From: a bacterium
Lineage (GTDB): Bacteria > Bacteroidota > Bacteroidia > Bacteroidales > Marinilabiliaceae
Assembly: GCA_963620665.1 (NCBI GenBank)
Contig: CAVFBA010000006.1
Span: forward strand, 2,083-66,082
DNA length: 64,000 nt
Direction of reading: 5' to 3'
Under the pieces are notes generated by a model, which ran no database searches, had not been told where the DNA came from, and saw only the letters and a program-made list of their open reading frames with translations. Shown one piece after another: positions 25,503 through 50,221 of this stretch. A program made the translations under genes and the position numbers. The first letter of the stretch is position 1, and each line of letters opens with the position of its first letter.

Positions 25503-27350
25503 CTACTCGGTCCATATCCCCATCTCACACCGCCCGCAATCCACCCTCACCTCATAACGCTTCCCGTCACTGTCCACAATGCTCAACGGCAACAACCCAG
25601 CCCCCCCGCCGCTCCTCCTCACGCACATCCCCAACGAGTTCAATATGCAATGCCGAGTCGTCATAACCTTCACACCACGCTTCTCACCCTGACGCTCATA
25701 TCCCCACTCCACCACCCTCGCCCCATGGCTCTCATAAAACCTCCTCGCCTCACCATTTATCACGTTCCCCTCACGACCAATCTCTCCCACAGGCCACATC
25801 GCCCCCTCCTCCTCCTCCCTCTCCACCTTCAACGCCCCATGCCGCGCCACCCTCGCCTCCGTATGCTCCTCAATAGCACGCCGACGCATCTCGTTCATCA
25901 ACCCCATCGTCACAAATCGCCCCGCCGCCGAGTCTTCCACCACCACCCCAGTCGCCTCATACGCCGTACCTCCCAACTTCGTCAATGCGCCAGCCATCTG
26001 CCTTCCCATCATCTCCCGATTCCGCGCCGCCTCACTCCCCACTGCCATCACCGTCCGCGTCGCAATCCCCTCCTCGTCCCTCATCACAAGCTCAAAACTA
26101 CCACCGCTATACCCCAACCGCATCTCCACGCCTATCTTCCGCTCCGTCCGGTCATGCCGCAACGTCTCTTCAAATGCCACATCCGCATTACGCCACACCA
26201 CATCACCCTCCCTCACGCACCCCACATTCTGCGCCCCAATCCTCACCACATCTCTCCCCACCCTCTCTGCCGTATTGACCTTCAACCCCTCAAGCCCTCT
26301 CACCCCAAAATAGCACAGCCCGTCACCATTGGCAATCTCCGCCCCCGTCCGCACCTCAATCACGCCACCCTTACCCACTTTCACCACCTTCCCAATCTTC
26401 TCGCCAATCGACTTCGATGTCTTCGGCTGCCAAATATCGGCCCTCCGCCCATGAGCGAAATACTCCGTAAATCCCCTGTTGAAACTCTTCTCAGGCCGAG
26501 CCTCAAAACCCGCCACAACCCTCCCCGAAGACAGCCGCTCCAAATCCGGCCGCCGACTCAATATCTCGTCTATTATCTGCCTATAATACAACGTTATATT
26601 ACTAACATACTCCACATCCTTCAACCGCCCCTCAATCTTGAACGACGACACGCCCGCATCTATCAACTCCTCTATATTCCCCGCCTGATTATTATCTTTC
26701 AACGACAACGCGTGCCCCCTCCGCATAAGCACCGTCCCATCCGCCCCAACCACGTCATAACCCAACCTGCACGGCTGAGCACACTCACCCCTGTTAGCCG
26801 ACCTCCCACCCTTCAGCAAACTCATATAGCACTGACCACTATACGACACGCACAACGCCCCATGAACAAACGCCTCCAAACGCACTCTCGTACCACGCGC
26901 AATCGCCCCAATCTCCTCAATGCTCAATTCTCGCGCCAACACCACCTGACCCATCCCCACCTTCTCCCAAAAACGTACCTTCTCCAACGTCCTGTTATCA
27001 CACTGAGTCGACGCATGCAACTCCATAGGAGGCATACCCCCACACAGCAACGACATATCCTGAACAATCAGCACATCCACGCCAACACCATACAACTCCC
27101 ACGCCAACCGACGAGCCGCCGACACCTCCTCATCCCTCAACAACGTGTTCAACGCCACATGAACCCTCGCCCCATACAAATGAGCATAACGAACCAACCT
27201 CCCTATATCCTCCACACTATTACCCGCCGCCTTCCGCGCACTATAACACGGAGCTCCTATATACACCGCGTCCGCGCCATGCTCTATCGCCGCCATACCG
27301 CACTCCACATTCCTCGCCGGGCACAGCAACTCTATCCTATTCCTTTCCAT
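25503..27350 (-). CDS. Peptidase U32 family protein (YhbU/YegQ/TrhP-like)
   Basis: ELLCPARNVECGMAAIEHGADAVYIG...YSARKAAGN ... HVALNTLL ... E.F.HGALC.SYSGQC is the U32 signature. 615 aa with a C-terminal extension. Confidence 0.85.
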   Translation of the reverse strand: MERNRIELLCPARNVECGMAAIEHGADAVYIGAPCYSARKAAGNSVEDIGRLVRYAHLYGARVHVALNTLLRDEEVSAARRLAWELYGVGVDVLIVQDMSLLCGGMPPMELHASTQCDNRTLEKVRFWEKVGMGQVVLARELSIEEIGAIARGTRVRLEAFVHGALCVSYSGQCYMSLLKGGRSANRGECAQPCRLGYDVVGADGTVLMRRGHALSLKDNNQAGNIEELIDAGVSSFKIEGRLKDVEYVSNITLYYRQIIDEILSRRPDLERLSSGRVVAGFEARPEKSFNRGFTEYFAHGRRADIWQPKTSKSIGEKIGKVVKVGKGGVIEVRTGAEIANGDGLCYFGVRGLEGLKVNTAERVGRDVVRIGAQNVGCVREGDVVWRNADVAFEETLRHDRTERKIGVEMRLGYSGGSFELVMRDEEGIATRTVMAVGSEAARNREMMGRQMAGALTKLGGTAYEATGVVVEDSAAGRFVTMGLMNEMRRRAIEEHTEARVARHGALKVEREEEEGAMWPVGEIGREGNVINGEARRFYESHGARVVEWGYERQGEKRGVKVMTTRHCILNSLGMCVRRSGGGAGLLPLSIVDSDGKRYEVRVDCGRCEMGIWTE

Positions 27351-27493
27351 ATCATCTCTTTACAACACATCATTCTTAACCAAACACGCATGGGCGCACA
27401 TGCCGAGACAACGCCTGCACCACCTCAAGGCCGCACCAGAGGCGCATAAAAAACCTAACGGCAACCTACCCACAACGGGGCGTAAAGACGCCG

Positions 27494-27542
27494 TCCACAA
27501 CGTCTCTACACCCCGCCCCACATCATTCCACAACGTCTCTAC
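27494..27542. repeat. Two copies of TCCACAACGTCTCTAC spaced 33 bp apart, part of a REP-like palindromic cluster
   Basis: Copies start at 27494 and 27527. The upstream aaagacgcc...acgtctct arms can pair. Confidence 0.7.
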
Positions 27543-27567
27543 GCCCAACCCTTCCGCTCAACCCACT

Positions 27568-29849: not shown

Positions 29850-31829
29850 TTACTCCTGTCGCACCACTAAGCGATCCTCGCTCATGCGCTCCATATATTG
29901 CTGTATTATCGCCTTCAACTCCCGCTCCATCTTCTCCCGCGTCTCACGCTCCTCCCCCTTAATGTCTCGTGTCAGCATCCAGTCTTTCTCAATATCATAC
30001 ATAGCCCTGCTCTCCGCCCCGTCAAACTGCAACATCCGCCCCCACTTCACATACTGATACAACCCGTTGTTATAGTTCACCGCCCACGTGTCCTCATCCG
30101 CCGTGTTGAACAAGTCCTTGCCAAACGCCACATACGGCTCGCCATACCCCAAGTAGTTCAATATCGTCGGCATAATGTCTATCTGCTGAGCTATGCAATG
30201 ACGCCTGCCCGCCGCTATCTCCCCACTCGGGTCAAATATCAATATCGGCGACCCATAAAGCCCCAAATCCGTCTTATACTCCTCATGATCACCCATACTC
30301 GTATGGTCACTCGTCATCACGAATATCGTGTTGTCATACCACGCCTGCCTGCTCGCCGTCTCAAAGAAACGACGCAACGAGTGATCCGTATACCTGATAC
30401 ACTTATGCATCACGTTCCCTCCCTCCTCCGGGAATGTGTCCCTATACGCCTCCGGTATCACAAACGGATGATGACTCGACGCCGTGAACACCGCCGTCAT
30501 GAATGGCTCCCTCATCTCGCTCATCTTCAAAGCGTAATATTGCAAAAATGGCTCATCCCATATAGCCCATGTACCGTCAAAATCCTCATCCCCACCAAAC
30601 CGCTTATCCTCACCATACTCCGTCCTCCCATAATAAGCCCCGAATCCCGTGCTCCTCGCAAACGCCATAAAACCCATGCTCCCATTAGCCGCCCCATGAA
30701 AAAACGCCGTCTCATAACCCTTACCACCAAGACAACGCGCCATACCCCCCACATCATTCATCGCGGCTGGAGTCAAGAAAAACGGCTCCACGAACATAGG
30801 TATGCTGCTCAACACGCTCGGCATACCGTCTATGCTCTTCCGACCATTGCAAAACGTATAATCAAAACTCATGCTCCGAGCATACAGCGAGTCCACAAAC
30901 GGCGCATACCCCACATAACGACCCCCATCCAACTTCTCATTATAACGACCTATAAACTCCCTCCCAAAACTCTCCACAATCAGCACCACCACATTCTTAT
31001 TCCTCATCACAGCCGTGTCACAACCCTCATGCAACGCGCTATATATCCCCTCCATCTCCTCACGGCTCATATACCCCGGGTCCCTGAACGTCTTCTTCCC
31101 CGCAGTCCTGATCATCGAGAACGGCGTGTTCAATATCAACGCCGCCTCAGCCGGCCTGTCCACATACTGGTTAGCGTTGGTTATCGTTATAGGACGGGTC
31201 GCCGACGTCGCGCCACCCCTCATCCCGATAATACTAAGCCCCACGAATACCCCCATCAACACCACATGCTTCGCGTAATACCACACCCAACATCCCACCC
31301 CCGCAGGCCTCTCCTCCCCCTTTGGCACGACATACAACTTCCACATCCCCACCATTATCACCACAAACAACACCACCAGATACCAATGCTCCACAGCCTC
31401 CCGCGCCATCACCATCCCCACATTCCCGTCATTATCAAACTCCTGGAACACACTCGCCGTAGTCCTCCTCCCCGTAAACCTGAAATACACACTGTCACAC
31501 AGGTTCACAAACACACACAACATATTCACCACCATATACTCCCACTTCGCCACCAACTGCCACACCCTCCCCTCCTTCAAATAGCACGGCACCAACATCA
31601 ACACCAAATACAACACCCCGCAATACGCTATCGCCGACGTGTCAAACACCAAGCTCCCCTCAACCATCTCCCACGCCCCGCCCCACGACAACCCCTCACC
31701 TATCTCCTCCCAATTCTCCAGCAGATACTCCACCCTGCACAACATGAACACCACGTACGCCATCAGCATGTTCAGCACATACGCCACGAACGTCCGGCGC
31801 ACACCCTTGCAGCTCTCTCCTTTGTTCAT
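29850..31829 (-). CDS. LTA synthase / phosphoglycerol-transferase family sulfatase-fold membrane protein
   Basis: 5 N-terminal TM segments followed by an alkaline-phosphatase-superfamily domain (NVVVLIVESFG ... MTSDH). Confidence 0.8.
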   Translation of the reverse strand: MNKGESCKGVRRTFVAYVLNMLMAYVVFMLCRVEYLLENWEEIGEGLSWGGAWEMVEGSLVFDTSAIAYCGVLYLVLMLVPCYLKEGRVWQLVAKWEYMVVNMLCVFVNLCDSVYFRFTGRRTTASVFQEFDNDGNVGMVMAREAVEHWYLVVLFVVIMVGMWKLYVVPKGEERPAGVGCWVWYYAKHVVLMGVFVGLSIIGMRGGATSATRPITITNANQYVDRPAEAALILNTPFSMIRTAGKKTFRDPGYMSREEMEGIYSALHEGCDTAVMRNKNVVVLIVESFGREFIGRYNEKLDGGRYVGYAPFVDSLYARSMSFDYTFCNGRKSIDGMPSVLSSIPMFVEPFFLTPAAMNDVGGMARCLGGKGYETAFFHGAANGSMGFMAFARSTGFGAYYGRTEYGEDKRFGGDEDFDGTWAIWDEPFLQYYALKMSEMREPFMTAVFTASSHHPFVIPEAYRDTFPEEGGNVMHKCIRYTDHSLRRFFETASRQAWYDNTIFVMTSDHTSMGDHEEYKTDLGLYGSPILIFDPSGEIAAGRRHCIAQQIDIMPTILNYLGYGEPYVAFGKDLFNTADEDTWAVNYNNGLYQYVKWGRMLQFDGAESRAMYDIEKDWMLTRDIKGEERETREKMERELKAIIQQYMERMSEDRLVVRQE

Positions 31830-31943
31830 CTATACACTCGCAATATTCCTTGCGAATTTACACCTTTCTCCCTCCCTCCCACCACCCTCCCACTACATTC
31901 CCATTAATATTCTATCACACCATAACACCACCTCCACCCCATT

Positions 31944-31978
31944 CCACCATCACCCCCTCCCACATAAAATCTCCCCAC
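31944..31978 (+). repeat. Left copy of a perfect 35-bp direct repeat bounding the low-GC islet
   Basis: ccaccatcaccccctcccacataaaatctccccac, identical to 34245-34279. Confidence 0.9.
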
Positions 31979-32023
31979 ATCTCCCCCAACGCCGAAGGCG
32001 TATTCTTAACGCGAAAGCGTAAT

Positions 32024-32049
32024 GTAGAGACGTCCGCCCGCGGCGTCTC
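32024..32049. repeat. REP-like palindrome core GTAGAGACGTCCGCCCGCGGCGTCTC
   Basis: 26-bp core identical to 36042-36067. Flanked by small GNRA-type hairpins (acgccgaaggcgt, acgcgaaagcgt). Confidence 0.85.
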
Positions 32050-32350
32050 CCCAAACGCCGAAGGCCTACCATAACCCACCACTGCAACATGCCCATGTAG
32101 AGTGCGCATTCTCCCTCGCCCACACCCCGCACATGTTTGAGGCATCCTACTCCCCAAAAACTCCCTAACATTACCCATACCCCGCCTCTTAACAAAAAAA
32201 CACTTCCCTATCTTGCTCTTGTGGCAACTTTAACCTACCTTTACCACGGTATTTAATCTTTCATAAAGACCGCACTTGCCTCGGCCGCCAAACAACCTAA
32301 AACAAAAAAAACGCAACTAAAGCTACATCTAACGACCTAACAGTCTGTAT

Positions 32351-34165
32351 ATGGCAAAAGAAATAGAACCCAAACTTCAAACCATTGGAGTTTATCTCAA
32401 AAAGACAGATACGTTTCGTATCCCCGAATACCAAAGAGCGTATTCCTGGACCATAGCCAACTGCGACAAACTTTGGCAAGACATTGAAGCCTACATCGCA
32501 CAAGATGCCGAAGACCCTTATTTCTTCGGAACTATTATCATCGACTGCTCCAAAGATGGCTATCTCAACCTGATAGACGGACAACAGCGAACCACCACAT
32601 TCCTGCTCCTCCTAAAGGCTATGCACCTGCGCATAACCGAAGTCTTAAAAGATATGGCCGACACAGAAGAAGCAAGAGGTCTCAAGAGAAGCCTTGAGCA
32701 GAGCTTAGATTCCATCTTCGAAATTCTATACCGCGCCGATGTGAGAAAACAAATAGAAATAATCAAAGACTGGAACAAGGCCAAAGACGTCACAATCCTG
32801 GAAAACGTCTCTATCAACGAACTTTACAAGGATGAGCTAAAGAAAATAATCGAAGCCCAATCTTTCGATGACGCCGAAAAAACCGCCCACAAGTTCCCTC
32901 GCAAGCAAAAGGACAACAAATACACCAACTTCTTCCGCAACTTCAAGTCCTTCTACGATAAACTTAGAGCCTATCAAGAATCCAAACTCGATGTGTTGGC
33001 AAATGGATTCCTCAACAAATGCCAAATTATCGAGATCAAGAGTTGGCAAATCGAGCAGGCCATAACCATGTTCAACTCTTTGAACTCCACAGGCATGCCT
33101 CTATCTGATGCCGACATCATCTCTGCACAACTTTTCTCTAAGGCTGCCGACGATATCGATTTCAAGAGCATTTGGGAGCCTATCATCCGGCAAGCCGATG
33201 AGTTGGCTCAAAGCAATGTCATCAACATCGACAATGTTCTTCAAGAATTCATGTACATCAACCGCTCTAAAAATCATGAGTACGAAGAAGGTCAACTGAC
33301 AACTCCAGGCGTAAGAAAATACTACACGGTTTTACAACCATCCCTCTTGGACGACCCTGTCGGCATCTGCTCCAAATTCGACCGCATCCTGAAGATTTGG
33401 CTCAAGATTCAAGGCTACCCCATCACGAAGCTCCTGCTCAAGTTCAATGAGAACTTCAAACTCTTTCTCATCTCTTACCTCTTCAGAACTTCCAACGATG
33501 AGATATCCGAGAAAGATATCACCCCCATCATGGAGTGCCTGCTGCGCTTGTTCGCACTCCTCGAGGTTGGCGAATCTGGCTTCTCCTCTCGCTATTTCAA
33601 AACCTTCCTTTTCAACGAGAACTTCAAGTTGGTCAACCCAGAGTACACAATAAAAGACATCATTGCCGATTTCGACAGGCACATCCATGCCACATGGAAA
33701 AGAGATGAGGTTATTGCCGACCTGAAAGAGTATGACAAGAACATCCTCGTCTATCTCAACGAATACATCTATGCCAAAGAACATGGCAAACCCTTCGATT
33801 TCACCTCCGACAAGGTCAACGTGGAACACATCATGCCAGCAAGCGGCCACAACATCGAGTCCATACGCACCGATGCCGATATGACAAAAGAAGACTTCGA
33901 CGTCATGGTCAACCTCCTCGGCAATAAAATCCTCCTTGAAGAAGACATCAACATACACATCGGGATGAACTGGTTCAAAACCAAGAAGGGAACACTTGTG
34001 CGAGACAAAAAAGGCTACGTCGGCAGTCAGTTCGCCATAGCCTCAGCCCTGTCTTCCTATCCTTCAGACAAATGGGGCAAGGATGATATCGAAGCCGCTA
34101 ACGACAAGGCCGCAAACAGAATCTGCCGATTCATATTCAACGACTCGAATGTGCATAATGCCTGA
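32351..34165 (+). CDS. DUF262 (ParB-like nuclease/NTPase) plus DUF1524 (His-Me finger) protein; GmrSD-like type IV restriction / anti-phage nuclease
   Basis: N-terminal IPEYQRAYSW and LIDGQQRTTT motifs. C-terminal VNVEHIMPAS ... LLGNKILLEEDIN (HNH-like DUF1524). Local GC is visibly lower than in the flanks. Confidence 0.85.
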   Translation: MAKEIEPKLQTIGVYLKKTDTFRIPEYQRAYSWTIANCDKLWQDIEAYIAQDAEDPYFFGTIIIDCSKDGYLNLIDGQQRTTTFLLLLKAMHLRITEVLKDMADTEEARGLKRSLEQSLDSIFEILYRADVRKQIEIIKDWNKAKDVTILENVSINELYKDELKKIIEAQSFDDAEKTAHKFPRKQKDNKYTNFFRNFKSFYDKLRAYQESKLDVLANGFLNKCQIIEIKSWQIEQAITMFNSLNSTGMPLSDADIISAQLFSKAADDIDFKSIWEPIIRQADELAQSNVINIDNVLQEFMYINRSKNHEYEEGQLTTPGVRKYYTVLQPSLLDDPVGICSKFDRILKIWLKIQGYPITKLLLKFNENFKLFLISYLFRTSNDEISEKDITPIMECLLRLFALLEVGESGFSSRYFKTFLFNENFKLVNPEYTIKDIIADFDRHIHATWKRDEVIADLKEYDKNILVYLNEYIYAKEHGKPFDFTSDKVNVEHIMPASGHNIESIRTDADMTKEDFDVMVNLLGNKILLEEDINIHIGMNWFKTKKGTLVRDKKGYVGSQFAIASALSSYPSDKWGKDDIEAANDKAANRICRFIFNDSNVHNA

Positions 34166-34200
34166 TTAACGGCCATAACGGCACTGCCACACCACATCAA

Positions 34201-34240
34201 CCCTGGTGGTAGACTTCATTGTCCGCCACCAGGGTTGTTT
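34201..34240 (+). terminator. Rho-independent terminator of the DUF262/DUF1524 gene
   Basis: ccctggtgg (34201-34209) pairs with ccaccaggg (34226-34234), followed by ttgttt. Confidence 0.7.
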
Positions 34241-34244
34241 AGCA

Positions 34245-34279
34245 CCACCATCACCCCCTCCCACATAAAATCTCCCCAC
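34245..34279 (+). repeat. Right copy of the perfect 35-bp direct repeat
   Basis: Identical to 31944-31978. Lies 15 nt downstream of the asnB stop codon. Confidence 0.9.
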
Positions 34280-34293
34280 CAACCCACTCACCA

Positions 34294-35877
34294 CTACTCC
34301 CCACTCGCCCCATAATTCGGCAACACACGAGCCGACGGGTCATTAACATCACAATGCTCCCACAACTTGTTCGGCATCCAATAATCCACTATCACGCCCG
34401 ACCGCCCAGGATAATAACTCTCAAAGATCTCCCTATACAACAAACTCTCCTTGCTTATCGGCATCACATGACCATAACGCCTCCTTCGCTCCTCATACTC
34501 CGCGTCACTATAATAACCCTCCGCAAACGCCTTCAGATACTCCACCGAACTATGACCCACCGCATCCGAAAACGCCGCCTTCTCCCTATACAAAATATCC
34601 CTCGGCAACAAATCCCCCTCAAAACTCTTCCTCAACAACCGCTTACCTATCCCAACCTTGTTCAACTTCAACTCCGGGTCTATGCTCATCACATACCTCA
34701 CAAACGCCAAGTCCCCAAACGGCACCCGAGCCTCAAGACTACACCCCGAAATACACCTGTCCGCCCTAAGCACATCATACATATACAACTCCCTAACCCT
34801 CTTCGCCGCCTCAGCCTGAAACGCCGCAGCCGACGGCGCATAGTCCGTATACTTATACCCAAACAACTCATCCGATATCTCCCCCGTAAGCAACACCTTG
34901 ATATCCGTCTTCTCCCTGATATACTTGCACACCAAATACATCCCTATCGACGCCCTGATCGTCGTAATATCATACGTCTCCGTCAAGTATATCAAATGAC
35001 TCAACGAGTTGAATATGTCATCCTTCGTAAACAACACCTCCGTATGCTCACTCCCAATATATTCCGCCACCTCACGGGCATACTTGATGTCAATAGGCCC
35101 ATCCTCAATACCCACCGCAAACGTTCGTATCGGCCTGCACAAATGATGCGCCGCGATAGCGCACACCAAACTCGAATCCAACCCGCCCGACAACAAGAAC
35201 CCAACAGGCACGTCACTCTGCAACCGCTTAACCACACCCTCCGTCAACAAACGCCTGATATTCGCGCATATCGTCGCCTCATCATCCTTCACATAACCAC
35301 CCCTCACCTCCGTCACATCACTATACCGCACAAACCTCTCCCCATCATACACATGCCCCGGAGGAAACGGCATCACCCTCTCGCACAACACGCTCAAAGC
35401 CTTCATCTCCGACGCAAAACACATATCACCCTCCGCCGTCACACCATAAAACATCCCCCTTATCCCAATCGGGTCACGAGCCGCCATGAACTTGTCTCTC
35501 TTCGAGTCATATATCACCATCGCAAACTCACCATCCAACTCACGAGCCATCTCCACTAACCCCCTGTCCGCCAATAACGGCAATATGCACTCACAGTCAC
35601 TCCCACTCCTGAACCCATAACCCCTATACCGCTCCCTCAACGCCACACTGTTATATATCTCACCATTGCACGTCAAATACACCCCCCCATCCACAAACGG
35701 CTGGTTCCCCGCGTCACTCGTGTCCATGATGCTCAACCGGTGGAACGCCATCCAACCCCTCGGCAAGTCCTGCATCAACGTGTTGTCCGGACCCCTATGC
35801 TTTATCGCGTACGCCTCATGGCCAAACTGCAACTTCTTCCTCAGGTCTTTCCCTGTATACACTGTAAATCCACACAT
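34294..35877 (-). CDS. asnB: Asparagine synthase (glutamine-hydrolysing)
   Basis: Ntn start MCGF, HRGPD, the SGGLDSS PP-loop and the typical C-terminal domain. Start set to ATG 35877 (Cys2 nucleophile), supported by a TAACTTTG box at 35907-35914. Confidence 0.9.
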   Translation of the reverse strand: MCGFTVYTGKDLRKKLQFGHEAYAIKHRGPDNTLMQDLPRGWMAFHRLSIMDTSDAGNQPFVDGGVYLTCNGEIYNSVALRERYRGYGFRSGSDCECILPLLADRGLVEMARELDGEFAMVIYDSKRDKFMAARDPIGIRGMFYGVTAEGDMCFASEMKALSVLCERVMPFPPGHVYDGERFVRYSDVTEVRGGYVKDDEATICANIRRLLTEGVVKRLQSDVPVGFLLSGGLDSSLVCAIAAHHLCRPIRTFAVGIEDGPIDIKYAREVAEYIGSEHTEVLFTKDDIFNSLSHLIYLTETYDITTIRASIGMYLVCKYIREKTDIKVLLTGEISDELFGYKYTDYAPSAAAFQAEAAKRVRELYMYDVLRADRCISGCSLEARVPFGDLAFVRYVMSIDPELKLNKVGIGKRLLRKSFEGDLLPRDILYREKAAFSDAVGHSSVEYLKAFAEGYYSDAEYEERRRRYGHVMPISKESLLYREIFESYYPGRSGVIVDYWMPNKLWEHCDVNDPSARVLPNYGASGE

Positions 35878-35906: not shown

Positions 35907-35914
35907 CAAAGTTA
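35907..35914 (-). promoter_or_regulatory. -7 promoter box TAACTTTG for asnB
   Basis: Reverse complement of caaagtta, 30 nt upstream of ATG 35877. Confidence 0.5.
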
Positions 35915-36040
35915 CATATTATAATCAAACCGCCAAATAAAATATCAAATTATTACCACCAACCTCCCAAGCAACCCACATTCATCGCACACCCGCCGCC
36001 CACATTCCTCCTAACTTCTCCCCAGGAAGCTATAGGTCGA

Positions 36041-36071
36041 AACCCACCCTTGTAGAGACGTCCGCCCGCGG
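36041..36071. repeat. REP-like palindrome with 10-bp arms (TGTAGAGACG / CGTCTCTACA) and an 11-nt spacer
   Basis: Shares the 26-bp core with 32024-32049. Followed by aaacgccgtaaggcgtaatgta, which also recurs near 32013-32064. Confidence 0.85.
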
Positions 36072-36217
36072 CGTCTCTACAAACGCCGTAAGGCGTAATG
36101 TACACCGCCGACCACATCGTCTCAAGGCCTGCGCCGCAGCAACATCTTTACCCCACACATCAACATTTACAAGATTTTTCCCTACCTTCGCCCAAAATCA
36201 TCCCGCCTCCGTCAGAC

Positions 36218-36542
36218 ATGAAAATATCTTTCGCCGATGAAGCACTCGCCGAACTGTTTGAAACCGGCAAAACATCAAGCCGCAAATACAAGCAGGTGTG
36301 CAAAAGCAAAAACTGGTGAACGGATATATTTCGTGCCGTGAAACTGATGCAGGGACGTTCAATCAACAAGAGAACTATCCTCATTCAGTTTCCTGCACTA
36401 CGAGAAACTCGCCCACGACCCAAGAAGCTCCGTGCGCATCGTCAACGGCATGGTCGAACGACTTCTCTTTCACGAAACTGACAACGGCATAGAAGTAGAA
36501 CTGATAGAAATAAACAGCACGCACTATGGCAACAATAAATAA
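36218..36542 (+). pseudogene. higB: Disrupted HigB/RelE-family toxin gene (premature TGA plus a frameshift)
   Basis: Frame 2 gives MKISFADEALAELFETGKTSSRKYKQVCKSKNW then TGA (36317-36319), then TDIFRAVKLMQG. Frame 3 from 36348 gives ...DVQSTRELSSFSFLHYEKLAHDPRSSVRIVNGMVERLLFHETDNGIEVELIEINSTHYGNNK with the stop at 36540-36542, overlapping the higA ATG. Together the pieces rebuild a toxin of about 107 aa. Confidence 0.6.
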
Positions 36543-36903
36543 CCAACCAATACCCGCAAGAGCAATTCACCCAGGAGAAATCCTGCGCCAAGAACTACGC
36601 GAACGTGGCATAAAGCAAAAGGAGTTCGCCCAAATGATAAATGTGACCCCGTCACACCTCAATGAGCTCATCAAAGGCAAACGCGACATGGACGAAAGAC
36701 TGGCCTTGAAATTAGAAAGCCAACTGGGCATCCCCCACACCATCTGGATGAACCTGCAAAACAGCTACAACTACGACTCCAAAGCAATCAAAGAAAGAGC
36801 CTCAGAAAAGCACGAAGCCCACAACCTCGAGCAACACTGCTCCGACATCTTCAACATCAACATCGTCCACAAAGGCCGTAGCCTCCAATCTCTCCCTAAC
36901 TAA
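36526..36903 (+). CDS. higA: HigA family antitoxin (XRE-type HTH)
   Basis: IHPGEILRQELRERGIKQKEFAQMINVTPSHLNELIKGKRDMDERLALKLESQLGIPHTIWMNLQNSY is the canonical HigA/VapI HTH. Confidence 0.85.
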   Translation: MATINNQPIPARAIHPGEILRQELRERGIKQKEFAQMINVTPSHLNELIKGKRDMDERLALKLESQLGIPHTIWMNLQNSYNYDSKAIKERASEKHEAHNLEQHCSDIFNINIVHKGRSLQSLPN

Positions 36904-36941
36904 CTCTCAGCACCCCACAGCTACCTCTCCCCCCTTTCCCC

Positions 36942-39607: not shown

Positions 39608-41302
39608 CTACTCCACCCTGAACTTCCAACTTATCTCACGCCGATTGCCACAACCATCCTCCACCACAGCCTCCAACGTGTGGCTCCCCTTCCCTATCCC
39701 CAAATAGCTCATCCGAGCCTTCAACCGCGTCTTCTTATAGTCATACTCAAACACCTCCCACCGCCCGTCTATCCTGACCTCATACCGCGCCACGCCACTC
39801 TTGTCATCCCCAACCCCAATATATATCCAACCCTCCTTCCCTACAACCGCACCCTTATTCCGCACCCCAACGCTCGGCGCCACCGTGTCCACATCCACCG
39901 TATACGTCCCAAACTGACCCACCTTTGCGCAAATCAAAGCCACATTACCCATCCCCACATCCTCACTCATCTCACCACCAGCATACACCACCCCCTTACC
40001 CACTACCCGCCCCACAAACACCTTCTTCCCAAACGACTTCCACTTCTCAGGCACACTCATCGTCACAACCATCTTCTTCTCCATTGGCTCCCTCACATCC
40101 CCAATGCTATAACCCGCCGGCAACGACACCCCCCTCTCCACCTTCTCCACGTTCACCCACGCATCCCTATACAAACTATGATGCGGTATCACAACGTCAA
40201 CACCCAACGTGTCCTTAGCCCACGTCCTCTCCCACCGCACCAAATCCCCCTTGCCGTCTCTCTTCCTCCCCAACGCCGCGTTCCTGCGACCCCTGAGCGT
40301 GAACGCCACAGTGCTCTTATTCCCCGCAAAATCCAACACCTCATAGCGCATCTTGTGAGTCTCGCCCTCACCCACCACCATAGGCGTCTCACGCGTCACG
40401 TATATCGGCAACTTGTTCCCTGGCTCCACCCACGACTTCTGCACATATCGCTTGTTCACAACGCTCTCACCATAGTCTATATGGCTGTTCACATGCTTAT
40501 TAAGACCAAAAGGAAAATGATCCACCCGCGACCGATACACCAACCGCTCCCCATCATACAGCCTCATCTCAACTATCCCACACGGCCTACCCCCCTTCTC
40601 CACATAGTCCGTACAATGCACCCCAACACCTATCTCCCCATACACGTCCACCGTCTTACCGCTTATCTGAGCCAACTTCATATACTTGTCCGTCTGCCCT
40701 CCCGCCACCTGCGCGTCTTCCCCCAAAGCGTATATCTTGACCCCATACACCGTCGGCGGCACATCATCTTTCTGTGTCGCTATAAATCGCATCGGGTTCA
40801 ACGGCTCCTCCGTCTCCGTGTCCCTTACCTCAAAATGCAAATGCGGTCCCCCACTGCCCCCAGTGTTTCCCGAGTATGCCACCACCTCATCACGCTTGAC
40901 TTCTATCCGACCCCTCTCCAAGAATATCTGCGCCTCAAACGACTCCTTCTCATACTGCTCCCGCCTTATCACGCTGTCTATCTTCGCCGCAAAACCATTC
41001 AGATGCCCATACACCGTCGTATGACCATCAGCATGGTCTATATACAACGCACGCCCATAGCCATACGCCCCAACCTTCACCCGGCTCACCCAACCATCCT
41101 CCGCCGCATGCACCTCCACATTCTCCTCTCCAAACGTGCTCATATCCAATCCCGCATGAAAATGCCCCCCGCGCAACTCCCCGTATGTACCGCTTATCCT
41201 ATACGCCCCCTTCAACGGCACCGCATACTGCTCGTCTCGTGTCTGCGCACTAATCCCCGCTGCGACACATACCGCCACTATGACTGCTACTCTCTTTTTC
41301 AT
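39608..41302 (-). CDS. M23 family peptidoglycan metalloendopeptidase with a long C-terminal beta-rich extension
   Basis: HFHAGLDM ... GNTGGSGGPHLHFEVR (the HxxxD and HxH motifs of LytM/M23). Signal peptide present. Confidence 0.9.
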   Translation of the reverse strand: MKKRVAVIVAVCVAAGISAQTRDEQYAVPLKGAYRISGTYGELRGGHFHAGLDMSTFGEENVEVHAAEDGWVSRVKVGAYGYGRALYIDHADGHTTVYGHLNGFAAKIDSVIRREQYEKESFEAQIFLERGRIEVKRDEVVAYSGNTGGSGGPHLHFEVRDTETEEPLNPMRFIATQKDDVPPTVYGVKIYALGEDAQVAGGQTDKYMKLAQISGKTVDVYGEIGVGVHCTDYVEKGGRPCGIVEMRLYDGERLVYRSRVDHFPFGLNKHVNSHIDYGESVVNKRYVQKSWVEPGNKLPIYVTRETPMVVGEGETHKMRYEVLDFAGNKSTVAFTLRGRRNAALGRKRDGKGDLVRWERTWAKDTLGVDVVIPHHSLYRDAWVNVEKVERGVSLPAGYSIGDVREPMEKKMVVTMSVPEKWKSFGKKVFVGRVVGKGVVYAGGEMSEDVGMGNVALICAKVGQFGTYTVDVDTVAPSVGVRNKGAVVGKEGWIYIGVGDDKSGVARYEVRIDGRWEVFEYDYKKTRLKARMSYLGIGKGSHTLEAVVEDGCGNRREISWKFRVE

Positions 41303-41323
41303 CTGTCTGTTGTCGTCTGTTGT

Positions 41324-42055
41324 CTATTGTTTTCCTCCCACACCCGCTTCCGCAACCCTGAGCTTCTCCACCGTCCCCACGTCATACCAATACCTCCCCT
41401 CCCCTATCCGCTCCCTCCCTATCCTAAACTCCCCAGCCGCACCCAAATAAGCATCCACAACCCCCAACTTCCTCACCTCGCCAAACGCCCTGACCAACCT
41501 CTGCTCCACAACGTGCAACCCGTTAAACGCCTCCCGCCACACCACATCCACCTCACGAGCAACACGCCTCCTGCCATTCTTCACATCCTCCCAACCACAC
41601 AACAACCCGTCTCCCCCAAATAGCAAATGACGTGTCGACTCCCGCCCACTCGTCAGCAACGTGGCATCCCACCCATGCCGCCTATGAGCCTCTATCAACT
41701 CACACACCGGCGCATCCGTCACCACATCCGCATTGCCTATCACTATCGGCCCCGCTCCCTCCATAAGACCCAACGCCTTTATCAACCCACCACCAGTGTC
41801 CAGCAACTCCCCACGCTCATCCGAGATAACAACCTCCGCTCTCCACCGCCACCTGTTCTCCTCCACATAATCCATTATCTGCTCCCCAAAGTGATGCACG
41901 TTAATCACTATATGATCCACCCCGCCATCCATCAGATGCTCCACAGCACGCTCCAACAACGTCTTGCCGCACACCGTCACTAACGCCTTAGGCCGTGTGT
42001 CTGTCAGCGGAGCCAAACGCGTGCCAAGACCCGCAGCGAATATCATCCCGTTCAT
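41324..42055 (-). CDS. murU: Sugar-1-phosphate nucleotidyltransferase, probable MurNAc-alpha-1-P uridylyltransferase
   Basis: MIFAAGLGTRLAPLTDTRPKALV N-terminal nucleotidyltransferase motif. 4-bp overlap with the upstream AmgK-like kinase gene, as in the amgK-murU recycling pairs. Confidence 0.7.
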   Translation of the reverse strand: MNGMIFAAGLGTRLAPLTDTRPKALVTVCGKTLLERAVEHLMDGGVDHIVINVHHFGEQIMDYVEENRWRWRAEVVISDERGELLDTGGGLIKALGLMEGAGPIVIGNADVVTDAPVCELIEAHRRHGWDATLLTSGRESTRHLLFGGDGLLCGWEDVKNGRRRVAREVDVVWREAFNGLHVVEQRLVRAFGEVRKLGVVDAYLGAAGEFRIGRERIGEGRYWYDVGTVEKLRVAEAGVGGKQ

Positions 42056-45550: not shown

Positions 45551-46147
45551 CTATTTGCCTAATGCGCACAACTCAGCATAGAGCCGCTGCGTGGGCAGCC
45601 CCATGACGTTCTGATACGAACCCTCTATATAGTCTATCCCCACCAACCCTATCCACTCCTGTATGCCATACGCGCCCGCCTTGTCCAGCGGCCGGCACTC
45701 CTCAACATACCGCTCTATCTTCTCTTCACTCAACACCCGCATCGTAACCTTCGTCTCGACAGAGAAACTCACACGCCCACCACCCGTCACGATGCACACC
45801 CCGGTTATCACCTTATGCTTGCGCCCGCTCAGCAGCCTGAGCATCCTCTTGGCATCCTCCACATCGTGCGGCTTGCCCAATATCACCTTGTCCAGCACCA
45901 CCGTGGTGTCGGCAGTAATCACCACGTCGCCCTCGCGCATCCCACCAACATACGCGTCTGCCTTCTCGTTGGCTATATATTCCGCCACGTCTTTCACGTT
46001 CATCGTCTCGGGATATGTCTCAGATATCCCATCCTTCACTTCCACCTCAAACTCCAATCCCATCTCCCGGAGCAACTCCTGCCGCCTCGGCGAGCCACTC
46101 GCCAATATCAAGCGCATGCCGTCTATAGTCTCTGTCATCTGCTTCAT
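45551..46147 (-). CDS. maf: Maf family nucleoside-triphosphate pyrophosphatase
   Basis: LILASGSPRRQELL ... ITADTTV ... GKP ... AGAYGIQE. Confidence 0.9.
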   Translation of the reverse strand: MKQMTETIDGMRLILASGSPRRQELLREMGLEFEVEVKDGISETYPETMNVKDVAEYIANEKADAYVGGMREGDVVITADTTVVLDKVILGKPHDVEDAKRMLRLLSGRKHKVITGVCIVTGGGRVSFSVETKVTMRVLSEEKIERYVEECRPLDKAGAYGIQEWIGLVGIDYIEGSYQNVMGLPTQRLYAELCALGK

Positions 46148-46182
46148 CCTGATAAGTTGTTTCTTCGCTATCTTAAATCCCG

Positions 46183-46190
46183 CAAAGATA
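46183..46190 (-). promoter_or_regulatory. -7 promoter box TATCTTTG for the maf-S46-amgK-murU-M23 operon
   Basis: Reverse complement of caaagata, 36 nt upstream of ATG 46147. Confidence 0.5.
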
Positions 46191-46391
46191 CGGTTTTATT
46201 CTCTTAGCCCCCTAAATACAACAACCCCTCTCACGCCCACCCGCTCCACTCCTACCCACCTCCTGATGTCTGCCTCTCTGTCACATAATATCACACTTGC
46301 GCACTCATTTCCGTCATATCGCGTCATCTCGTAGCCACCTTACCCTATCCATATCAGTTTTTGTTCCATACGACCACTGCCCCCCCCATTT

Positions 46392-46454
46392 TGTCGTTTA
46401 TCACCTCAAAAGTGTCGTTCGTCACTTCTCAGATGTCATTTCGTCAAAAAATGA
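46392..46454 (+). repeat. Three 21-bp-phased direct repeats (TGTCnTTyrTCAC-like) upstream of the coiled-coil lipoprotein promoter
   Basis: tgtcgtttatcacctcaaaag, tgtcgttcgtcacttctcaga and tgtcatttcgtcaaaaaatga. Starts at 46392, 46413 and 46434. A further ttcgtcacc sits at 46523-46531. Confidence 0.8.
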
Positions 46455-46487
46455 AATTTCCTTCACCACCATTCAAATATTTTACCA

Positions 46488-46495
46488 TAACTTTG
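46488..46495 (+). promoter_or_regulatory. -7 promoter box TAACTTTG for the coiled-coil lipoprotein / beta-barrel operon
   Basis: Exact TAnnTTTG match, 73 nt upstream of ATG 46568. Confidence 0.5.
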
Positions 46496-46567
46496 TCTCT
46501 GAAAGGATGGCGGATACTAATGTTCGTCACCTTAGTTAACTTTTTAACCCTTAATCTAACTAACGGA

Positions 46568-48745: not shown

Positions 48746-48763
48746 TCCTTTAACCCGACCAGC

Positions 48764-49585
48764 ATGATTAGAAGTTTTTGCGCTTCAGCACTGCTTCTCG
48801 CCCTTATAGCCGCTCCTGCCACAGCGCAGGAGCAGGCCAAGGACGCCGCCGGTCAGTTTCAAGTATCTCTCGTCCTGGGCAACAACACTATGTTCAACCA
48901 GAACACCAGTGAATACCTCTTGCCCGAATACTACGACGGGACGACAACACCAAGCATCGGCATCGGTGGCGACGACGTCACCTCGTCCGACCCTGGCCTG
49001 TACTTGAACCTCGGCGACCTCGGAAGCAACAGCCTTCTCAACATGGTCGGTGTCCAAGGACGCTATTTCATCACCTCTAATCTCGATGTCAACCTCATGT
49101 TCGCCGCCAATATAGCAGCGACTCCCAAGAAAGACTACATCGAGGGTGATAATACTATCTCGGACATGGCCATACCGGCCTCCCGCGCCATAGAGGGCCG
49201 CCTCAAGACTAACATGACGGCCACGATAGGCGCCAACTGGCACTTCAGCACGAAGTCTGACAAGATATCTCTCTATGCCGGCATCGCCGTTGGCGGGCAG
49301 TTCGGCAAGATCGTCACCACACGTCCCTATACCGACAACGACGAGGTAGCCATACTGACCCCCTCGACCCGCGCGGGACGCATCTGGGCTCTCCAAGGCT
49401 CGTTGGTGGGTGGCGTAGAGTTCCTCCCTATACCATGCCTCGCACTCGGCATCGAGGTCGCCCCGGCGGCCTACCAATACAGCCAACTCGAGGTATACCC
49501 CAAGGGCTACGAGACGTATGTCGCGCAACATCACGACATCAAGTTCTTCGCCACGCCGAACCTCAAAATCGGCTTCCGCTTCTAA
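48764..49585 (+). CDS. Outer-membrane beta-barrel protein
   Basis: Signal peptide ...APATAQEQ, alternating-strand pattern, C-terminal beta-signal NLKIGFRF. 18 nt downstream of the lipoprotein gene. Confidence 0.7.
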   Translation: MIRSFCASALLLALIAAPATAQEQAKDAAGQFQVSLVLGNNTMFNQNTSEYLLPEYYDGTTTPSIGIGGDDVTSSDPGLYLNLGDLGSNSLLNMVGVQGRYFITSNLDVNLMFAANIAATPKKDYIEGDNTISDMAIPASRAIEGRLKTNMTATIGANWHFSTKSDKISLYAGIAVGGQFGKIVTTRPYTDNDEVAILTPSTRAGRIWALQGSLVGGVEFLPIPCLALGIEVAPAAYQYSQLEVYPKGYETYVAQHHDIKFFATPNLKIGFRF

Positions 49586-49642
49586 GAACCCGTAACCTGA
49601 GGAGGAGCACTCTTCCTTCAGACTACATAACCCCATAGTATC

Positions 49643-50196: not shown

Positions 50197-50221
50197 CCTA
50201 AGAATCGACATTAAGTTCCAA

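What the first reader, a model, noticed from the sequence alone, without database searches (positions are those of the whole stretch)
31944..34279. Low-GC islet with a single GmrSD-like nuclease gene bounded by perfect 35-bp direct repeats
The 35-mer ccaccatcaccccctcccacataaaatctccccac occurs at 31944-31978 and again at 34245-34279. Between the copies lie about 2.27 kb containing:
- a REP-like palindrome cluster
- a visibly AT-richer stretch (about 42 percent GC in a 100-nt sample, against about 55 percent in the flanks) with only weak skew
- one DUF262/DUF1524 gene with its own terminator

The flanks are core genes, the LTA-synthase-family gene and asnB. This looks like a cargo insertion with duplication of the target or attachment sequence, but no integrase, transposase or tRNA is present. 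The mobilisation mechanism is therefore unexplained. Options include homologous exchange through the C-rich intergenic motif, trans-acting recombinases, or an ancient event.
Basis: seen in the sequence. Interest (0 to 1): 0.65.

Follow-up and report, generated by a model that had tools for sequence, protein, structure and literature searches.

The report
Strain-variable restriction-gene islet with 35-bp repeats
A 2.3-kb piece of DNA carrying one intact phage-defence nuclease gene sits between two core genes of an uncultured gut Bacteroidales bacterium, flanked by an exact 35-bp duplication of host sequence. A genome of the same species has the exact empty site, so the insertion is real and recent, but what moved it is still unknown.

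Summary
The 35-mer occurs exactly twice in the window (31944-31978 and 34245-34279) and nowhere else. It brackets 2,266 nt holding a REP-like hairpin array, a spacer, one intact 604-aa GmrSD-family gene (DUF262 plus DUF1524, all catalytic motifs present) and a strong hairpin.

A conspecific MAG (GCA_963621185.1) reads LTA-synthase, 114 nt, one 35-mer, 14 nt, asnB. That is 223/223 identical to the window with the islet and one repeat removed.

- Three other conspecific assemblies carry the islet with no internal SNP, although their flanks differ by 0.2-0.4%.
- The sister species and two more distant relatives lack the gene.
- Composition changes sharply at the inner edges of the repeats.

The islet is therefore a recent insertion that is still present in some strains and absent in others. 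The 64-kb window holds no integrase, transposase or tRNA.

The mechanism is unresolved. I favour Campbell-type recombination through the 35-mer, driven in trans. A one-off insertion that duplicated its target is the main rival.

The gene is an ordinary member of a family common in Prevotellaceae, where it usually sits inside type I restriction-modification operons.

In passing, the host genome shows an extraordinary strand asymmetry (GC skew about -0.5). This may be more interesting than the islet.

The parts
31944..31978 (.). Left copy of the 35-bp direct repeat. It is host sequence with no G, like old host intergenic DNA.
   Evidence: Exact match. The single copy in the empty-site genome L119 has the same left context. 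G = 0.
31979..34244 (+). The inserted segment as a whole (2,266 nt), present in some strains of the species and absent in others.
   Evidence: Absent, precisely, from L119. Present in L001, in L099 plus L118, and in L002. No SNPs against L001 and none against L118 over 33267-34244.
31979..32125 (.). Array of REP-like hairpin modules specific to this lineage: ACGCC-GAA-GGCGT, ACGC-GAAA-GCGT, GAGACG..CGTCTC, and ACGCCGAAGGCCTACCATAACCCACC.
   Evidence: Fold. A 38-nt copy, 95% alike, lies at 36051-36088, with relatives at 27486-27545 and 56903-56927. The family is found in the sister species but in none of the roughly 80 other Bacteroidales loci.
32126..32350 (+). Spacer upstream of the gene, presumed to hold its promoter. 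No exact Bacteroidetes -7 motif TAnnTTTG is present.
   Evidence: G = 0.11, which is intermediate composition. No TANNTTTG match here. No homologue in any fetched locus.
32351..34165 (+). Intact GmrSD-family gene (604 aa). N-terminal DUF262 with QR (28-29), IDGQQR (75-80) and FxxxN (241-245). C-terminal DUF1524 with EHIMP (492-496), N525 and N534.
   Evidence: Pfam. PADLOC best hit HEC-06, 5e-43. Translation. The motif residues are invariant in 30 homologues. Foldseek top hits are SspE and DndI.
34198..34237 (.). Strong hairpin (17-bp stem) 33 nt after the stop codon and 7 nt before the right repeat. It is a likely terminator for the islet gene and, on the other strand, now for asnB.
   Evidence: Inverted repeat I1. 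RNA fold z = -5.4. Not flagged by the T-run-based terminator scan.
34245..34279 (.). Right copy of the 35-bp direct repeat, 14 nt from the asnB stop codon.
   Evidence: The sister species has no copy at this position.
29850..31829 (-). Flanking core gene: LTA-synthase-family, sulfatase-fold membrane protein.
   Evidence: PF00884. Syntenic next to asnB in L004, L006, L108, L109 and L119.
34294..35877 (-). Flanking core gene: asparagine synthase B.
   Evidence: PF00733 and PF13537. MCG start. Bacteroidetes -7 motif TAACTTTG at 35907-35914.

Best explanation
This is a small, non-autonomous defence islet: 2,266 nt of DNA made of a lineage-specific REP-like hairpin array, a spacer, one intact GmrSD-family type IV (modification-dependent) restriction gene and a terminator hairpin. 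It lies in the 163-nt spacer between asnB and an LTA-synthase-family gene of an uncultured Bacteroidales species.

Shown:
- The islet is present in some strains of the species and absent in others.
- The empty allele has one copy of a 35-bp host sequence and the filled allele has two, one at each end of the insert.
- The insert is younger than the flanking diversity and younger than the host's extreme strand bias.

Inferred:
- The protein works alone, as an NTP-dependent His-Me-finger nuclease that cuts phage DNA carrying modified cytosines.
- The islet enters and leaves by reciprocal (Campbell-type) recombination through the 35-mer, between the chromosome and a circular form of the islet. A recombinase encoded elsewhere, or host RecA acting on 35 bp of identity, would catalyse this. 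That makes the islet comparable to an att-flanked element that has no integrase of its own.
- Between strains, it is also carried along by ordinary homologous recombination in the flanks.

Not explained: how the first duplication of this non-conserved host sequence arose.
For: Repeats and anatomy.

Exact empty site in conspecific L119, 223/223 identical to the prediction. Filled state in three further independent assemblies.

Two contigs (L116, L117) stop exactly at the outer end of the 35-mer (34245). That is where an empty and a filled allele would branch if both were in one sample.

The sister species has one 35-mer and no gene. L004 and L006 have asnB directly next to the LTA synthase.

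Recency:
- 0 SNPs in 2,266 nt against L001, where about 4 are expected from the 20 SNPs in 11.5 kb of flanks (Poisson P about 0.02; my arithmetic).
- 0 SNPs in 978 nt against L118, where about 3.6 are expected.
- Flank SNPs form a mosaic that does not match presence or absence of the islet.

Composition:
- Host intergenic DNA and the 35-mer have G = 0-0.04. Islet non-coding DNA has G = 0.11-0.24, and the change falls at the inner edges of the repeats.
- Synonymous G is retained at 0.71 in the islet gene, against 0.20-0.32 in four host genes of both orientations.

Protein: Pfam, PADLOC, motifs and fold. Family definitions come from PMC11411939 and PMC11322646. The first of these reports that HEC-06-type GmrSD-like proteins act on their own.

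A 35-bp flanking identity lies within the range of att cores and, from my own knowledge, beyond any known transposase target duplication. Integrase-less att-flanked elements (CIMEs) are a described category (PMC5704250).
Against: - No recombinase lies in the islet or anywhere in the 64 kb, and none could be looked for genome-wide.
- The 35-mer contains no G, so it cannot hold the dyad-symmetric core sites typical of tyrosine recombinases or Xer.
- The 35-mer is fast-evolving, non-conserved intergenic host sequence: 6/35 differences in the sister species and a 3-4-difference allele in L001. Conservative site-specific recombination cannot create such identity. The duplication therefore looks as if it was made in place from the host target, which favours the rival explanation for the founding event.
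- No circular junction, no larger parent element and no second cargo at this site was found.
- Related GmrSD-YhcG cassettes at other loci have no flanking repeats.
- Activity, expression and phage targets of the protein are untested, and no canonical Bacteroidetes promoter motif lies upstream.
- All genomes are MAGs or unitigs, that is, population consensus sequences.
Confidence: 0.45

Rival explanations
1. A one-off insertion that duplicated its target. A linear or circular fragment from elsewhere in this lineage (REP array plus GmrSD) was joined into a break with a 35-nt stagger, either by an unknown transposase- or casposase-like enzyme or by gap-filling repair at a stalled fork. That created the 35-bp duplication in place. 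Since then the islet has had no mobility of its own. It spreads between strains only by homologous recombination in the flanks, and is lost by deletion between the repeats.
For: - Both repeat copies are pure host-type, G-free sequence, sharply different from the interior.
- Both copies are identical to the single copy of the empty allele.
- The sister species has only the left-hand copy.
- The repeat is non-conserved spacer DNA that an incoming element would not be expected to carry.
- There is no recombinase nearby.
- The flank SNP mosaic shows that homologous recombination is frequent in this population.
- There is no microhomology or terminal inverted repeat at the junctions, so the joins look blunt.
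Against: - To my knowledge, no enzyme is known to give a 35-bp target duplication around a 2.3-kb insert. IS and transposon duplications are 2-15 bp, and only CRISPR repeat duplication reaches this length.
- The four differences between the two copies in L001 need a later short conversion patch that ends at the edge of the islet.
- The islet has been seen at one site only.
Confidence: 0.3
2. The gene is an old resident of the locus. The only event is a precise deletion in the L119 lineage by recombination between the two 35-mers, so nothing was recently inserted.
For: Recombination between 35-bp direct repeats would leave exactly the empty allele that is observed. Third codon positions of the gene (GC3 0.60, skew -0.48) are much closer to host usage than those of its nearest homologues (GC3 0.31-0.40, skew about 0).
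Against: - The gene is absent from the sister species and from L004 and L006.
- The islet has no SNPs across three assemblies whose flanks differ by 0.2-0.4%.
- Synonymous G has not been depleted as it has in host genes (0.71 against 0.20-0.32).
- The 35-mer allele of the empty site is identical to both copies in the window.
- This reading still does not explain where the duplication came from.
Confidence: 0.1
3. An assembly artefact: a k-mer-length overlap left untrimmed, or a chimeric join of a separate contig into the asnB-LTA spacer.
For: All sequences are metagenome assemblies. Logan unitigs (k = 31) break 30 nt into each repeat, and a de Bruijn graph alone cannot tell a filled site from an empty site plus a circle.
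Against: - SPAdes MAG contigs from three different samples read through the junctions: L001 through both, L099 through the left and L118 through the right.
- In L001 the two copies differ at 4 of 35 positions, which an overlap artefact cannot produce.
- 35 is not, to my knowledge, a k value these assemblers use.
- The empty allele is assembled independently inside a 91.9-kb contig.
Confidence: 0.02

Closest known systems
GmrSD-family type IV restriction enzymes (Eco94GmrSD, BrxU, SspE, DndI, V. cholerae TgvB, E. faecalis EF_B0059)
   Same: Same two-domain layout: N-terminal DUF262 with QR, DGQQR and FxxxN, then a helical linker, then C-terminal DUF1524 with the EHxxP His-Me finger (definitions). 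The only significant structural matches of the model are SspE and DndI.
   Different: - It is very distant in sequence from every solved or tested member. Only the SspE N-domain matches, at E = 8e-6, and the C-terminal domain alone finds no family member (its only hit, an unrelated Ras-like protein, has E 0.06).
- No sspABCD, dnd or BREX genes lie nearby.
- It is a single gene, unlike the two-protein TgvAB system.
- Its substrate is unknown.
PADLOC HEC-06 (GmrSD-like genes embedded in Hma or type I restriction-modification clusters)
   Same: HEC-06 gives the best HMM matches (5e-43, 3e-42, 8e-40). Homologues at 80-82% identity sit between hsdM and hsdS of type I restriction-modification operons that also carry an hsdS-shuffling integrase, in Prevotella amnii and in MAGs.
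   Different: Here the gene is solitary, with its own upstream spacer and hairpin. It also lacks the DUF1016/YhcG nuclease gene that overlaps its stop codon in the closest homologues (83-86% identity) and in the P. amnii operon (82%).
CIME (cis-mobilizable element): an att-flanked remnant of an integrative element that has lost its integrase (PMC5704250)
   Same: Flanked by direct repeats, with no integration or transfer genes. A conspecific empty site holds a single repeat copy, and the element lies next to the 3' end of a conserved gene (asnB).
   Different: - No parent ICE or IME and no cognate integrase is known.
- The repeat is non-conserved spacer DNA, not the end of a tRNA or protein gene.
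- The repeat has no dyad symmetry.
- The element is only 2.3 kb, and part of it is built from host-lineage REP modules.
IMEX elements and dif/pdif modules (integration by host XerCD)
   Same: They carry no recombinase of their own and are flanked by repeats of about 28 bp that a host enzyme uses (my own knowledge).
   Different: The 35-mer has no G, so it has no inverted XerC/XerD arms. The locus is not at a skew switch or terminus.

Membership tests
GmrSD family (type IV restriction, DUF262 + DUF1524) | N-terminal DUF262/GmrSD_N domain | tested here: met
   PF03235, E 2.3e-36, 126 bits against a cut-off of 33.2, residues 16-262.
GmrSD family (type IV restriction, DUF262 + DUF1524) | DUF262 motifs QR, (I/V)DGQQR and FxxxN (as listed in PMC11411939 and PMC11322646) | tested here: met
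   YQR 27-29, IDGQQR 75-80 and FNSLN 241-245 in the translation. All are invariant in 30 homologues. Definitions.
GmrSD family (type IV restriction, DUF262 + DUF1524) | C-terminal DUF1524/GmrSD_C domain with the EHxxP His-Me finger and downstream Asn residues | tested here: met
   PF07510, E 2.8e-10, 40.7 bits against a cut-off of 23. EHIMP 492-496, N525 and N534; E492, H493, P496, N525 and N534 are invariant in 30 homologues.
GmrSD family (type IV restriction, DUF262 + DUF1524) | Fold like solved members (BrxU, SspE) | tested here: inconclusive
   AF2 model with mean pLDDT 69 and pTM 0.55. The only Foldseek hits with E <= 0.001 are SspE 7DRR (1e-8) and DndI 9JFL (1e-7), both with probability 1.0, but TM-scores are only 0.33-0.39. 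BrxU is not among the 50 matches shown, of which only SspE and DndI have E <= 0.001.
GmrSD family (type IV restriction, DUF262 + DUF1524) | NTP-dependent cleavage of DNA with modified cytosines, and phage restriction | not testable with these tools
   Needs cloning and phage or enzyme assays.
HEC-06 (PADLOC) | Best match to the HEC-06 profiles | tested here: met
   PDLC04155, PDLC04157 and PDLC04154 at 5e-43 to 8e-40, ahead of Orf5 and SspE. Each match is split into two stretches, and the best covers only residues 1-288.
HEC-06 (PADLOC) | Embedded in an Hma or type I restriction-modification gene cluster | tested here: not met
   The neighbours here are an LTA-synthase-family gene and asnB, and the window has no hsd or Hma genes. 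The feature is met in the homologues P0031 and P0057.
BrxU / SspE / DndI system components | Partner genes (BREX, sspABCD, dndBCDE) in the neighbourhood | tested here: not met
   None found among the window's ORFs of at least 150 aa (plus the 125-aa HTH gene) that were scanned against Pfam.
att-flanked non-autonomous integrative element (CIME-like) | Direct repeats (attL/attR) at both ends and no integrase or transfer genes inside | tested here: met
   35/35 identical repeats, with a single GmrSD gene inside.
att-flanked non-autonomous integrative element (CIME-like) | Empty site with one repeat copy in a related genome | tested here: met
   L119, 223/223 identical to the prediction.
att-flanked non-autonomous integrative element (CIME-like) | A cognate integrase or parent element using the same att site, and excision as a circle | not testable with these tools
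   No whole genome of the species and no raw reads were available.
DDE transposon / insertion sequence | Transposase gene, terminal inverted repeats and a short (2-15 bp) target duplication | tested here: not met
   No transposase. No inverted repeat links the two ends. The duplication is 35 bp.
Xer-dependent element (IMEX / dif module) | Flanking dif-like sites with inverted XerC/XerD arms | tested here: not met
   The 35-mer has 0 G, so no arm can pair with another. There is no skew switch at the locus.

The most novel reading that the evidence does not exclude
The 35-bp duplication may be the footprint of an undescribed insertion pathway in this lineage. In this reading, a trans-acting enzyme linked to the lineage-specific REP-like arrays makes widely staggered cuts, or recombines at the 3' edge of a specific spacer sequence, and so moves single defence or addiction genes packaged behind a REP array.

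Three observations fit this:
- A second islet 1.8 kb away begins with the same REP module.
- The sister species carries a different REP-rich insert, 0.8-0.9 kb long, directly after its single copy of the same 35-mer.
- Variable cargo in the sister species is bracketed by REP arrays.

Probability: 0.12. Interest if true: 0.75.

Novelty: new member of a known kind. Interest (0 to 1): 0.42.

Why it matters
The case is unusually clean. It shows one defence gene being gained or lost at base-pair precision within a species, with both alleles in hand and no mobility gene of its own.

It shows that a GmrSD-type gene which normally sits inside type I restriction-modification operons can be cut loose and kept as a stand-alone islet. 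It also gives a defined substrate, a 35-bp repeat with two known junctions, for asking how defence genes without an integrase move in gut Bacteroidales.

The host's extreme strand bias serves as a built-in clock that separates old DNA from newly arrived DNA at single-junction resolution. That could be used genome-wide to date acquisitions in this lineage.

The gene family and the idea of strain-variable defence islets are both well known, so the islet itself is of moderate interest only.

Tried and rejected
- **Dispersed repeat.** Rejected. A 20-nt core gave four chance hits in the metagenome collection, with no similarity beyond the 20 nt, and none in viral contigs. Among all fetched loci it occurs only at the orthologous site.
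- **A recent donor.** None found. The nearest homologues are 86% identical in protein and 76% in DNA, and DNA similarity stops at the edges of the coding sequence. Nothing closer than 38% identity (protein) on plasmids or in phage records, no DNA match on plasmids, and 53% in IMG/VR.
- **Flanking repeats as a general feature of this gene's cassettes.** Rejected. GmrSD-YhcG cassettes in L103, L106 and L107 have none.
- **A second, decayed copy of the 35-mer next to asnB in the sister species.** Rejected. The best secondary alignment is no better than shuffled sequence.
- **The L001 hybrid repeat as proof of site-specific crossover.** Rejected as non-discriminating. A short homologous conversion patch ending at the heterology boundary explains it equally well.
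- **Amelioration at third codon positions as proof of long residence.** Rejected. C-ending codons are also normal in relatives without the skew (L004, L006), and the islet gene shows no excess loss of G.
- **Sequencing runs.** No usable run was served. The three runs that were listed held only fragments.
- **higB for the broken ORF in the second islet.** Not supported by Pfam.
- **L007's DUF262 gene near its LTA synthase.** A different family member at a different site, taken as coincidence.
- **An 11-nt repeat around the second islet (36144 and 36943).** Compatible with chance.
Full report
**1. Observation**

The 35-mer CCACCATCACCCCCTCCCACATAAAATCTCCCCAC is present at 31944-31978 and 34245-34279 with no mismatch. 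No third copy appears with up to three mismatches on either strand, and none is expected by chance. In a repeat scan of the whole window it is the only perfect long direct repeat. The bases next to the two copies differ on both sides, so the repeat is exactly 35 bp and the enclosed segment is 31979-34244 (2,266 nt).

That segment holds, in order:
- an array of small G+C hairpins (31979 to about 32125);
- about 225 nt of spacer;
- a 604-codon ORF (32351-34165, + strand);
- a 17-bp-stem hairpin (34198-34237), 7 nt before the right repeat.

GC is 0.41-0.50 and GC skew -0.12 to -0.27 inside. The flanks have GC 0.51-0.55 and skew -0.43 to -0.68. The flanking genes are a sulfatase-fold LTA-synthase-family gene (29850-31829, -) and asnB (34294-35877, -; the ORF finder's TTG start is upstream of the real MCG start). 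ARAGORN finds no tRNA. Pfam scans of the window's ORFs of at least 150 aa (plus the 125-aa HTH gene) find only housekeeping-type families, with no integrase and no transposase. The description is therefore accurate.

**2. The gene**

The ORF matches GmrSD_N (PF03235, 2.3e-36) and GmrSD_C (PF07510, 2.8e-10), both above Pfam's cut-offs. In PADLOC its best matches are the HEC-06 profiles (5e-43), followed by Orf5 and SspE.

The family's defining motifs, as listed in PMC11411939 and PMC11322646, are all present: QR (28-29), IDGQQR (75-80), FxxxN (241-245) and EHxxP (EHIMP, 492-496), with N525 and N534. These residues are invariant in an alignment of 30 homologues.

By sequence, only the N-domain of SspE is detectable among solved structures (8e-6). 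The C-terminal domain alone finds no family member. An AlphaFold model of moderate quality (pLDDT 69) has SspE (7DRR) and DndI (9JFL) as its only significant Foldseek matches, at low TM-scores.

I conclude that this is an intact member of the DUF262/DUF1524 (GmrSD) superfamily of the HEC-06 type. PMC11411939, citing earlier work, reports that proteins of this type act on their own. Its substrate and activity are untested.

**3. Where the gene family normally lives**

Homologues at 72-86% identity are abundant in Prevotellaceae. Their contexts fall into two classes.
- Inside a type I restriction-modification operon: hsdR, hsdM, GmrSD, optionally DUF1016/YhcG, then hsdS, followed by an integrase and a spare hsdS (P0057 and P0031 of Prevotella amnii).
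- As a two-gene GmrSD-YhcG cassette between unrelated housekeeping genes at several different loci.

The cassettes I could check on both sides have no flanking direct repeats. DNA similarity between the window and its nearest homologues (76%) begins at the start codon and ends about 25 nt before the stop. No recent donor is in the databases. Plasmid, phage and IMG/VR records hold only relatives at 53% identity or less. The window's copy is unusual in being solitary.

**4. The empty site**

A scan of GTDB species representatives with the LTA-synthase protein places the organism among uncultured Bacteroidales. In two relatives, L004 and L006 (76% and 68% protein identity), asnB lies directly next to the LTA synthase with a spacer of about 250 nt and no GmrSD. 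Those spacers cannot be aligned with the window.

Exact-protein look-ups then gave conspecific and sister-species contigs.

*Filled:*
- L001 (GCA_963605815.1) is 99.83% identical over 13.8 kb and carries the islet.
- L099 and L118 (GCA_963628015.1) read through the left and right junctions.
- Logan unitigs of SRR13434654 break 30 nt (k-1) into each repeat, as expected for a 35-bp repeat at k = 31.

*Empty:* L119 (GCA_963621185.1, a 91.9-kb contig, with flanks 99.4-99.9% identical to the window) has a 163-nt spacer between asnB and the LTA synthase. A 223-nt stretch across it is identical at every position to the window after deleting 31979-34279.

*Possibly both:* two further contigs, L116 (Logan SRR13434646) and L117 (GCA_963644115.1), end exactly at 34245, the outer edge of the 35-mer. 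That is the branch point expected if a sample holds both alleles. This is an inference, not a demonstration.

*Sister species* (flanks 93% identical in DNA, asnB 95.6% in protein; L003, L108-L115): it has one homologue of the 35-mer (29/35) at the LTA side. That is followed by 0.8-0.9 kb of REP-rich non-coding DNA running up to the asnB stop codon. There is no GmrSD and no second copy above chance.

**5. Age and direction**

The host genome has an extreme absolute-strand bias (section 8). This works as a clock.
- Old host intergenic DNA has G = 0.03-0.04 on the + strand.
- The 35-mer, and the 14 nt between the right copy and asnB, have no G at all.
- The islet's non-coding parts have G = 0.11-0.24, and the change falls exactly at the inner edges of the repeats.
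- At synonymous sites, polarised with homologues, the islet gene kept 71% of ancestral G. Control lineages of the same family kept 57-73%. Four host genes of both orientations kept only 20-32%.

The gene therefore arrived after most of the bias had built up, and the bias predates the split from the sister species. Its third positions (GC3 0.60, skew -0.48) differ from those of its homologues (GC3 0.31-0.40, skew about 0). C-ending codons are also normal in relatives without the skew, so this does not prove long residence.

Within the species, the islet has no SNPs against L001 over 2,266 nt. The flanks have 20 SNPs in about 11.5 kb, which predicts about 4 (Poisson P about 0.02; my arithmetic). 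It also has no SNPs against L118 over 978 nt, where about 3.6 are expected. The flank SNPs form a mosaic that does not follow presence or absence of the islet.

Together these results point to a recent gain that has moved across recombining backgrounds, not to an old gene lost once.

**6. What the insert is made of**

The hairpin array is not foreign. Its modules are ACGCCGwAGGCGT hairpins, GTAGAGACG-N-CGTCTC, and GCGTAAT..TTAACGCGAA. They recur at 27486-27545, at 36041-36100 (38 nt, 95% identical) and at 56903-56927 in the window. They are also found in the sister species, but in none of the roughly 80 other Bacteroidales loci fetched. The number of units varies between strains (a 20-nt indel at 36092).

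The empty site contains no such module. The array therefore travelled with the gene, and the inserted fragment was assembled or long resident within this lineage. The rest of the islet's non-coding DNA has no match anywhere.

**7. Mechanism**

*Shown:* the filled and empty alleles differ by the insert plus one copy of a 35-bp host sequence. There are no terminal inverted repeats, no junction microhomology, no recombinase in cis, and none within about 30 kb on either side.

*Candidate mechanisms:*

(a) Campbell-type recombination through the 35-mer, by a site-specific recombinase acting in trans or by RecA.
- For: it accounts for the precise empty site, for the repeat length (within the range of att cores and, to my knowledge, beyond any transposase target duplication), and for the hints that both alleles coexist in some samples. 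It has a described precedent in integrase-less att-flanked elements (CIMEs; PMC5704250).
- Against: the 35-mer has no dyad symmetry, since it contains no G. It is also fast-evolving, non-conserved host spacer. Conservative recombination cannot create such identity, so the founding duplication looks as if it was made in place.

(b) A one-off insertion that duplicated its target, at a 35-nt staggered break or gap, followed only by homologous exchange and deletion between the repeats.
- For: it fits the host-like composition of both copies.
- Against: no enzyme is known to do this.

*The L001 evidence does not decide between them.* In L001 the left copy differs from the right at 4 of 35 positions, all within the first 15 nt, and one more SNP lies 6 nt outside. 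This could be a hybrid attL/attR. It could equally be a short homologous conversion patch that ends where homology ends.

I give (a) 0.45, (b) 0.30, an old resident gene with a single deletion 0.10, and an assembly artefact 0.02. The artefact is contradicted by three independent SPAdes assemblies, by the non-identical copies in L001, and by the independently assembled empty allele.

**8. Seen in passing**

*Strand bias.* This is the most striking thing in the window.
- GC skew is about -0.5 across most of it, whatever the direction of the genes.
- Third-position skew is -0.6 to -0.85 in + strand genes. On the coding strand of - strand genes it is +0.5 to +0.78.
- Polarised against L004 and L006, the + strand shows G to A (0.37-0.46), G to C (0.27-0.31) and T to C (0.5-0.8), with C retained. 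This holds in genes of both orientations. On the - strand that corresponds to C to T, C to G and A to G.
- Conspecifics and the sister species share the bias. The next relatives do not.
- The sign flips at 10-16 kb. The bias is weak at 46-56 kb, although the genes there are core genes.
- I found no paper describing this.
- One side effect is a set of long spurious ORFs on the + strand lying over - strand genes.

*Second islet.* A second small islet (about 36040-36905) begins with the same REP module and carries a broken short ORF and an HTH_3 gene. It is absent from L004 and L006. My guess that the broken ORF is higB is not supported by Pfam.

**9. Verdict**

- The gene is an ordinary member of a known defence family.
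- The islet is a clean, recent insertion, present in some strains and absent in others, of the integrase-less, repeat-flanked kind.
- The way it moves is unresolved.

Interest is moderate for the islet. The host's strand asymmetry deserves a separate look.

Noticed in passing
whole window, e.g. 18000-46000; sign flip at about 9600-17500; weak at 46000-56000: The host genome has an extreme absolute-strand compositional bias.
- GC skew is about -0.5.
- Third-codon-position skew reaches -0.85 in + strand genes, and +0.78 on the coding strand of - strand genes.
- Old intergenic DNA has 3-4% G on the + strand.
- Polarised against orthologues, the + strand shows G to A, G to C and T to C, independent of gene orientation.

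Conspecific MAGs and the sister species share the bias. The next relatives (76% protein identity) do not. No matching paper was found.
   Followed up: partly
29898-31907, 25650-27449, 34354-35559, 39680-41623 (+ strand): ORFs of 400-670 codons lie on the G- and T-poor + strand, opposite real - strand genes. They are most likely by-products of stop-codon depletion caused by the strand bias, and they would mislead gene callers.
   Followed up: no
27486-27545, 31979-32125, 36041-36100, 56903-56927; L108, L109, L003: A lineage-specific family of REP-like hairpin modules (ACGCCGwAGGCGT; GTAGAGACG..CGTCTC; GCGTAAT..TTAACGCGAA). Arrays differ in unit number between strains (20-nt indel at 36092). In the sister species they bracket alternative cargo upstream of asnB (RHS-like genes in L109 and L112, against a short ORF plus an HTH gene in L108 and L110).
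   Followed up: partly
36040-36905: A second small islet between asnB and the next gene. It consists of a REP module, a spacer, a frame-shifted short ORF (36220-36525) and an intact HTH_3 gene (36526-36903), with weak skew. It is absent from L004 and L006 and variable in the sister species. The layout recalls a toxin-antitoxin pair, but Pfam does not support higB.
   Followed up: partly
31938-31958 and 34254 (window against L001): Five of the 24 differences between the window and the conspecific L001 over 13.8 kb fall within or 6 nt from the two 35-mers. This spacer sequence therefore has at least two old alleles in the population, and two of the L001 states match the sister species.
   Followed up: partly
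12621-13016: Five tandem copies of a 66-nt unit (the three central copies 98-100% alike, the two outer copies 61% and 70%), mostly inside ORF 12699-13553, which has no Pfam match.
   Followed up: no
4320-4367 and 50071-50118; L108 and L109 asnB-LTA spacer: An ATGCTCC-rich repeat element occurs as an inverted pair 45.7 kb apart in the window. A similar ATGCTCC-rich stretch, judged by eye, lies in the sister species' asnB-LTA spacer. This is a second dispersed repeat family in the lineage.
   Followed up: no
L083 7815-8087; L100, L103, L107: In the closest homologues (83-86% identity) and in the P. amnii type I operon (82%), the GmrSD stop codon overlaps the start of a DUF1016/YhcG (PD-(D/E)XK-like) gene. 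This conserved two-gene cassette has lost its second gene in the window.
   Followed up: partly
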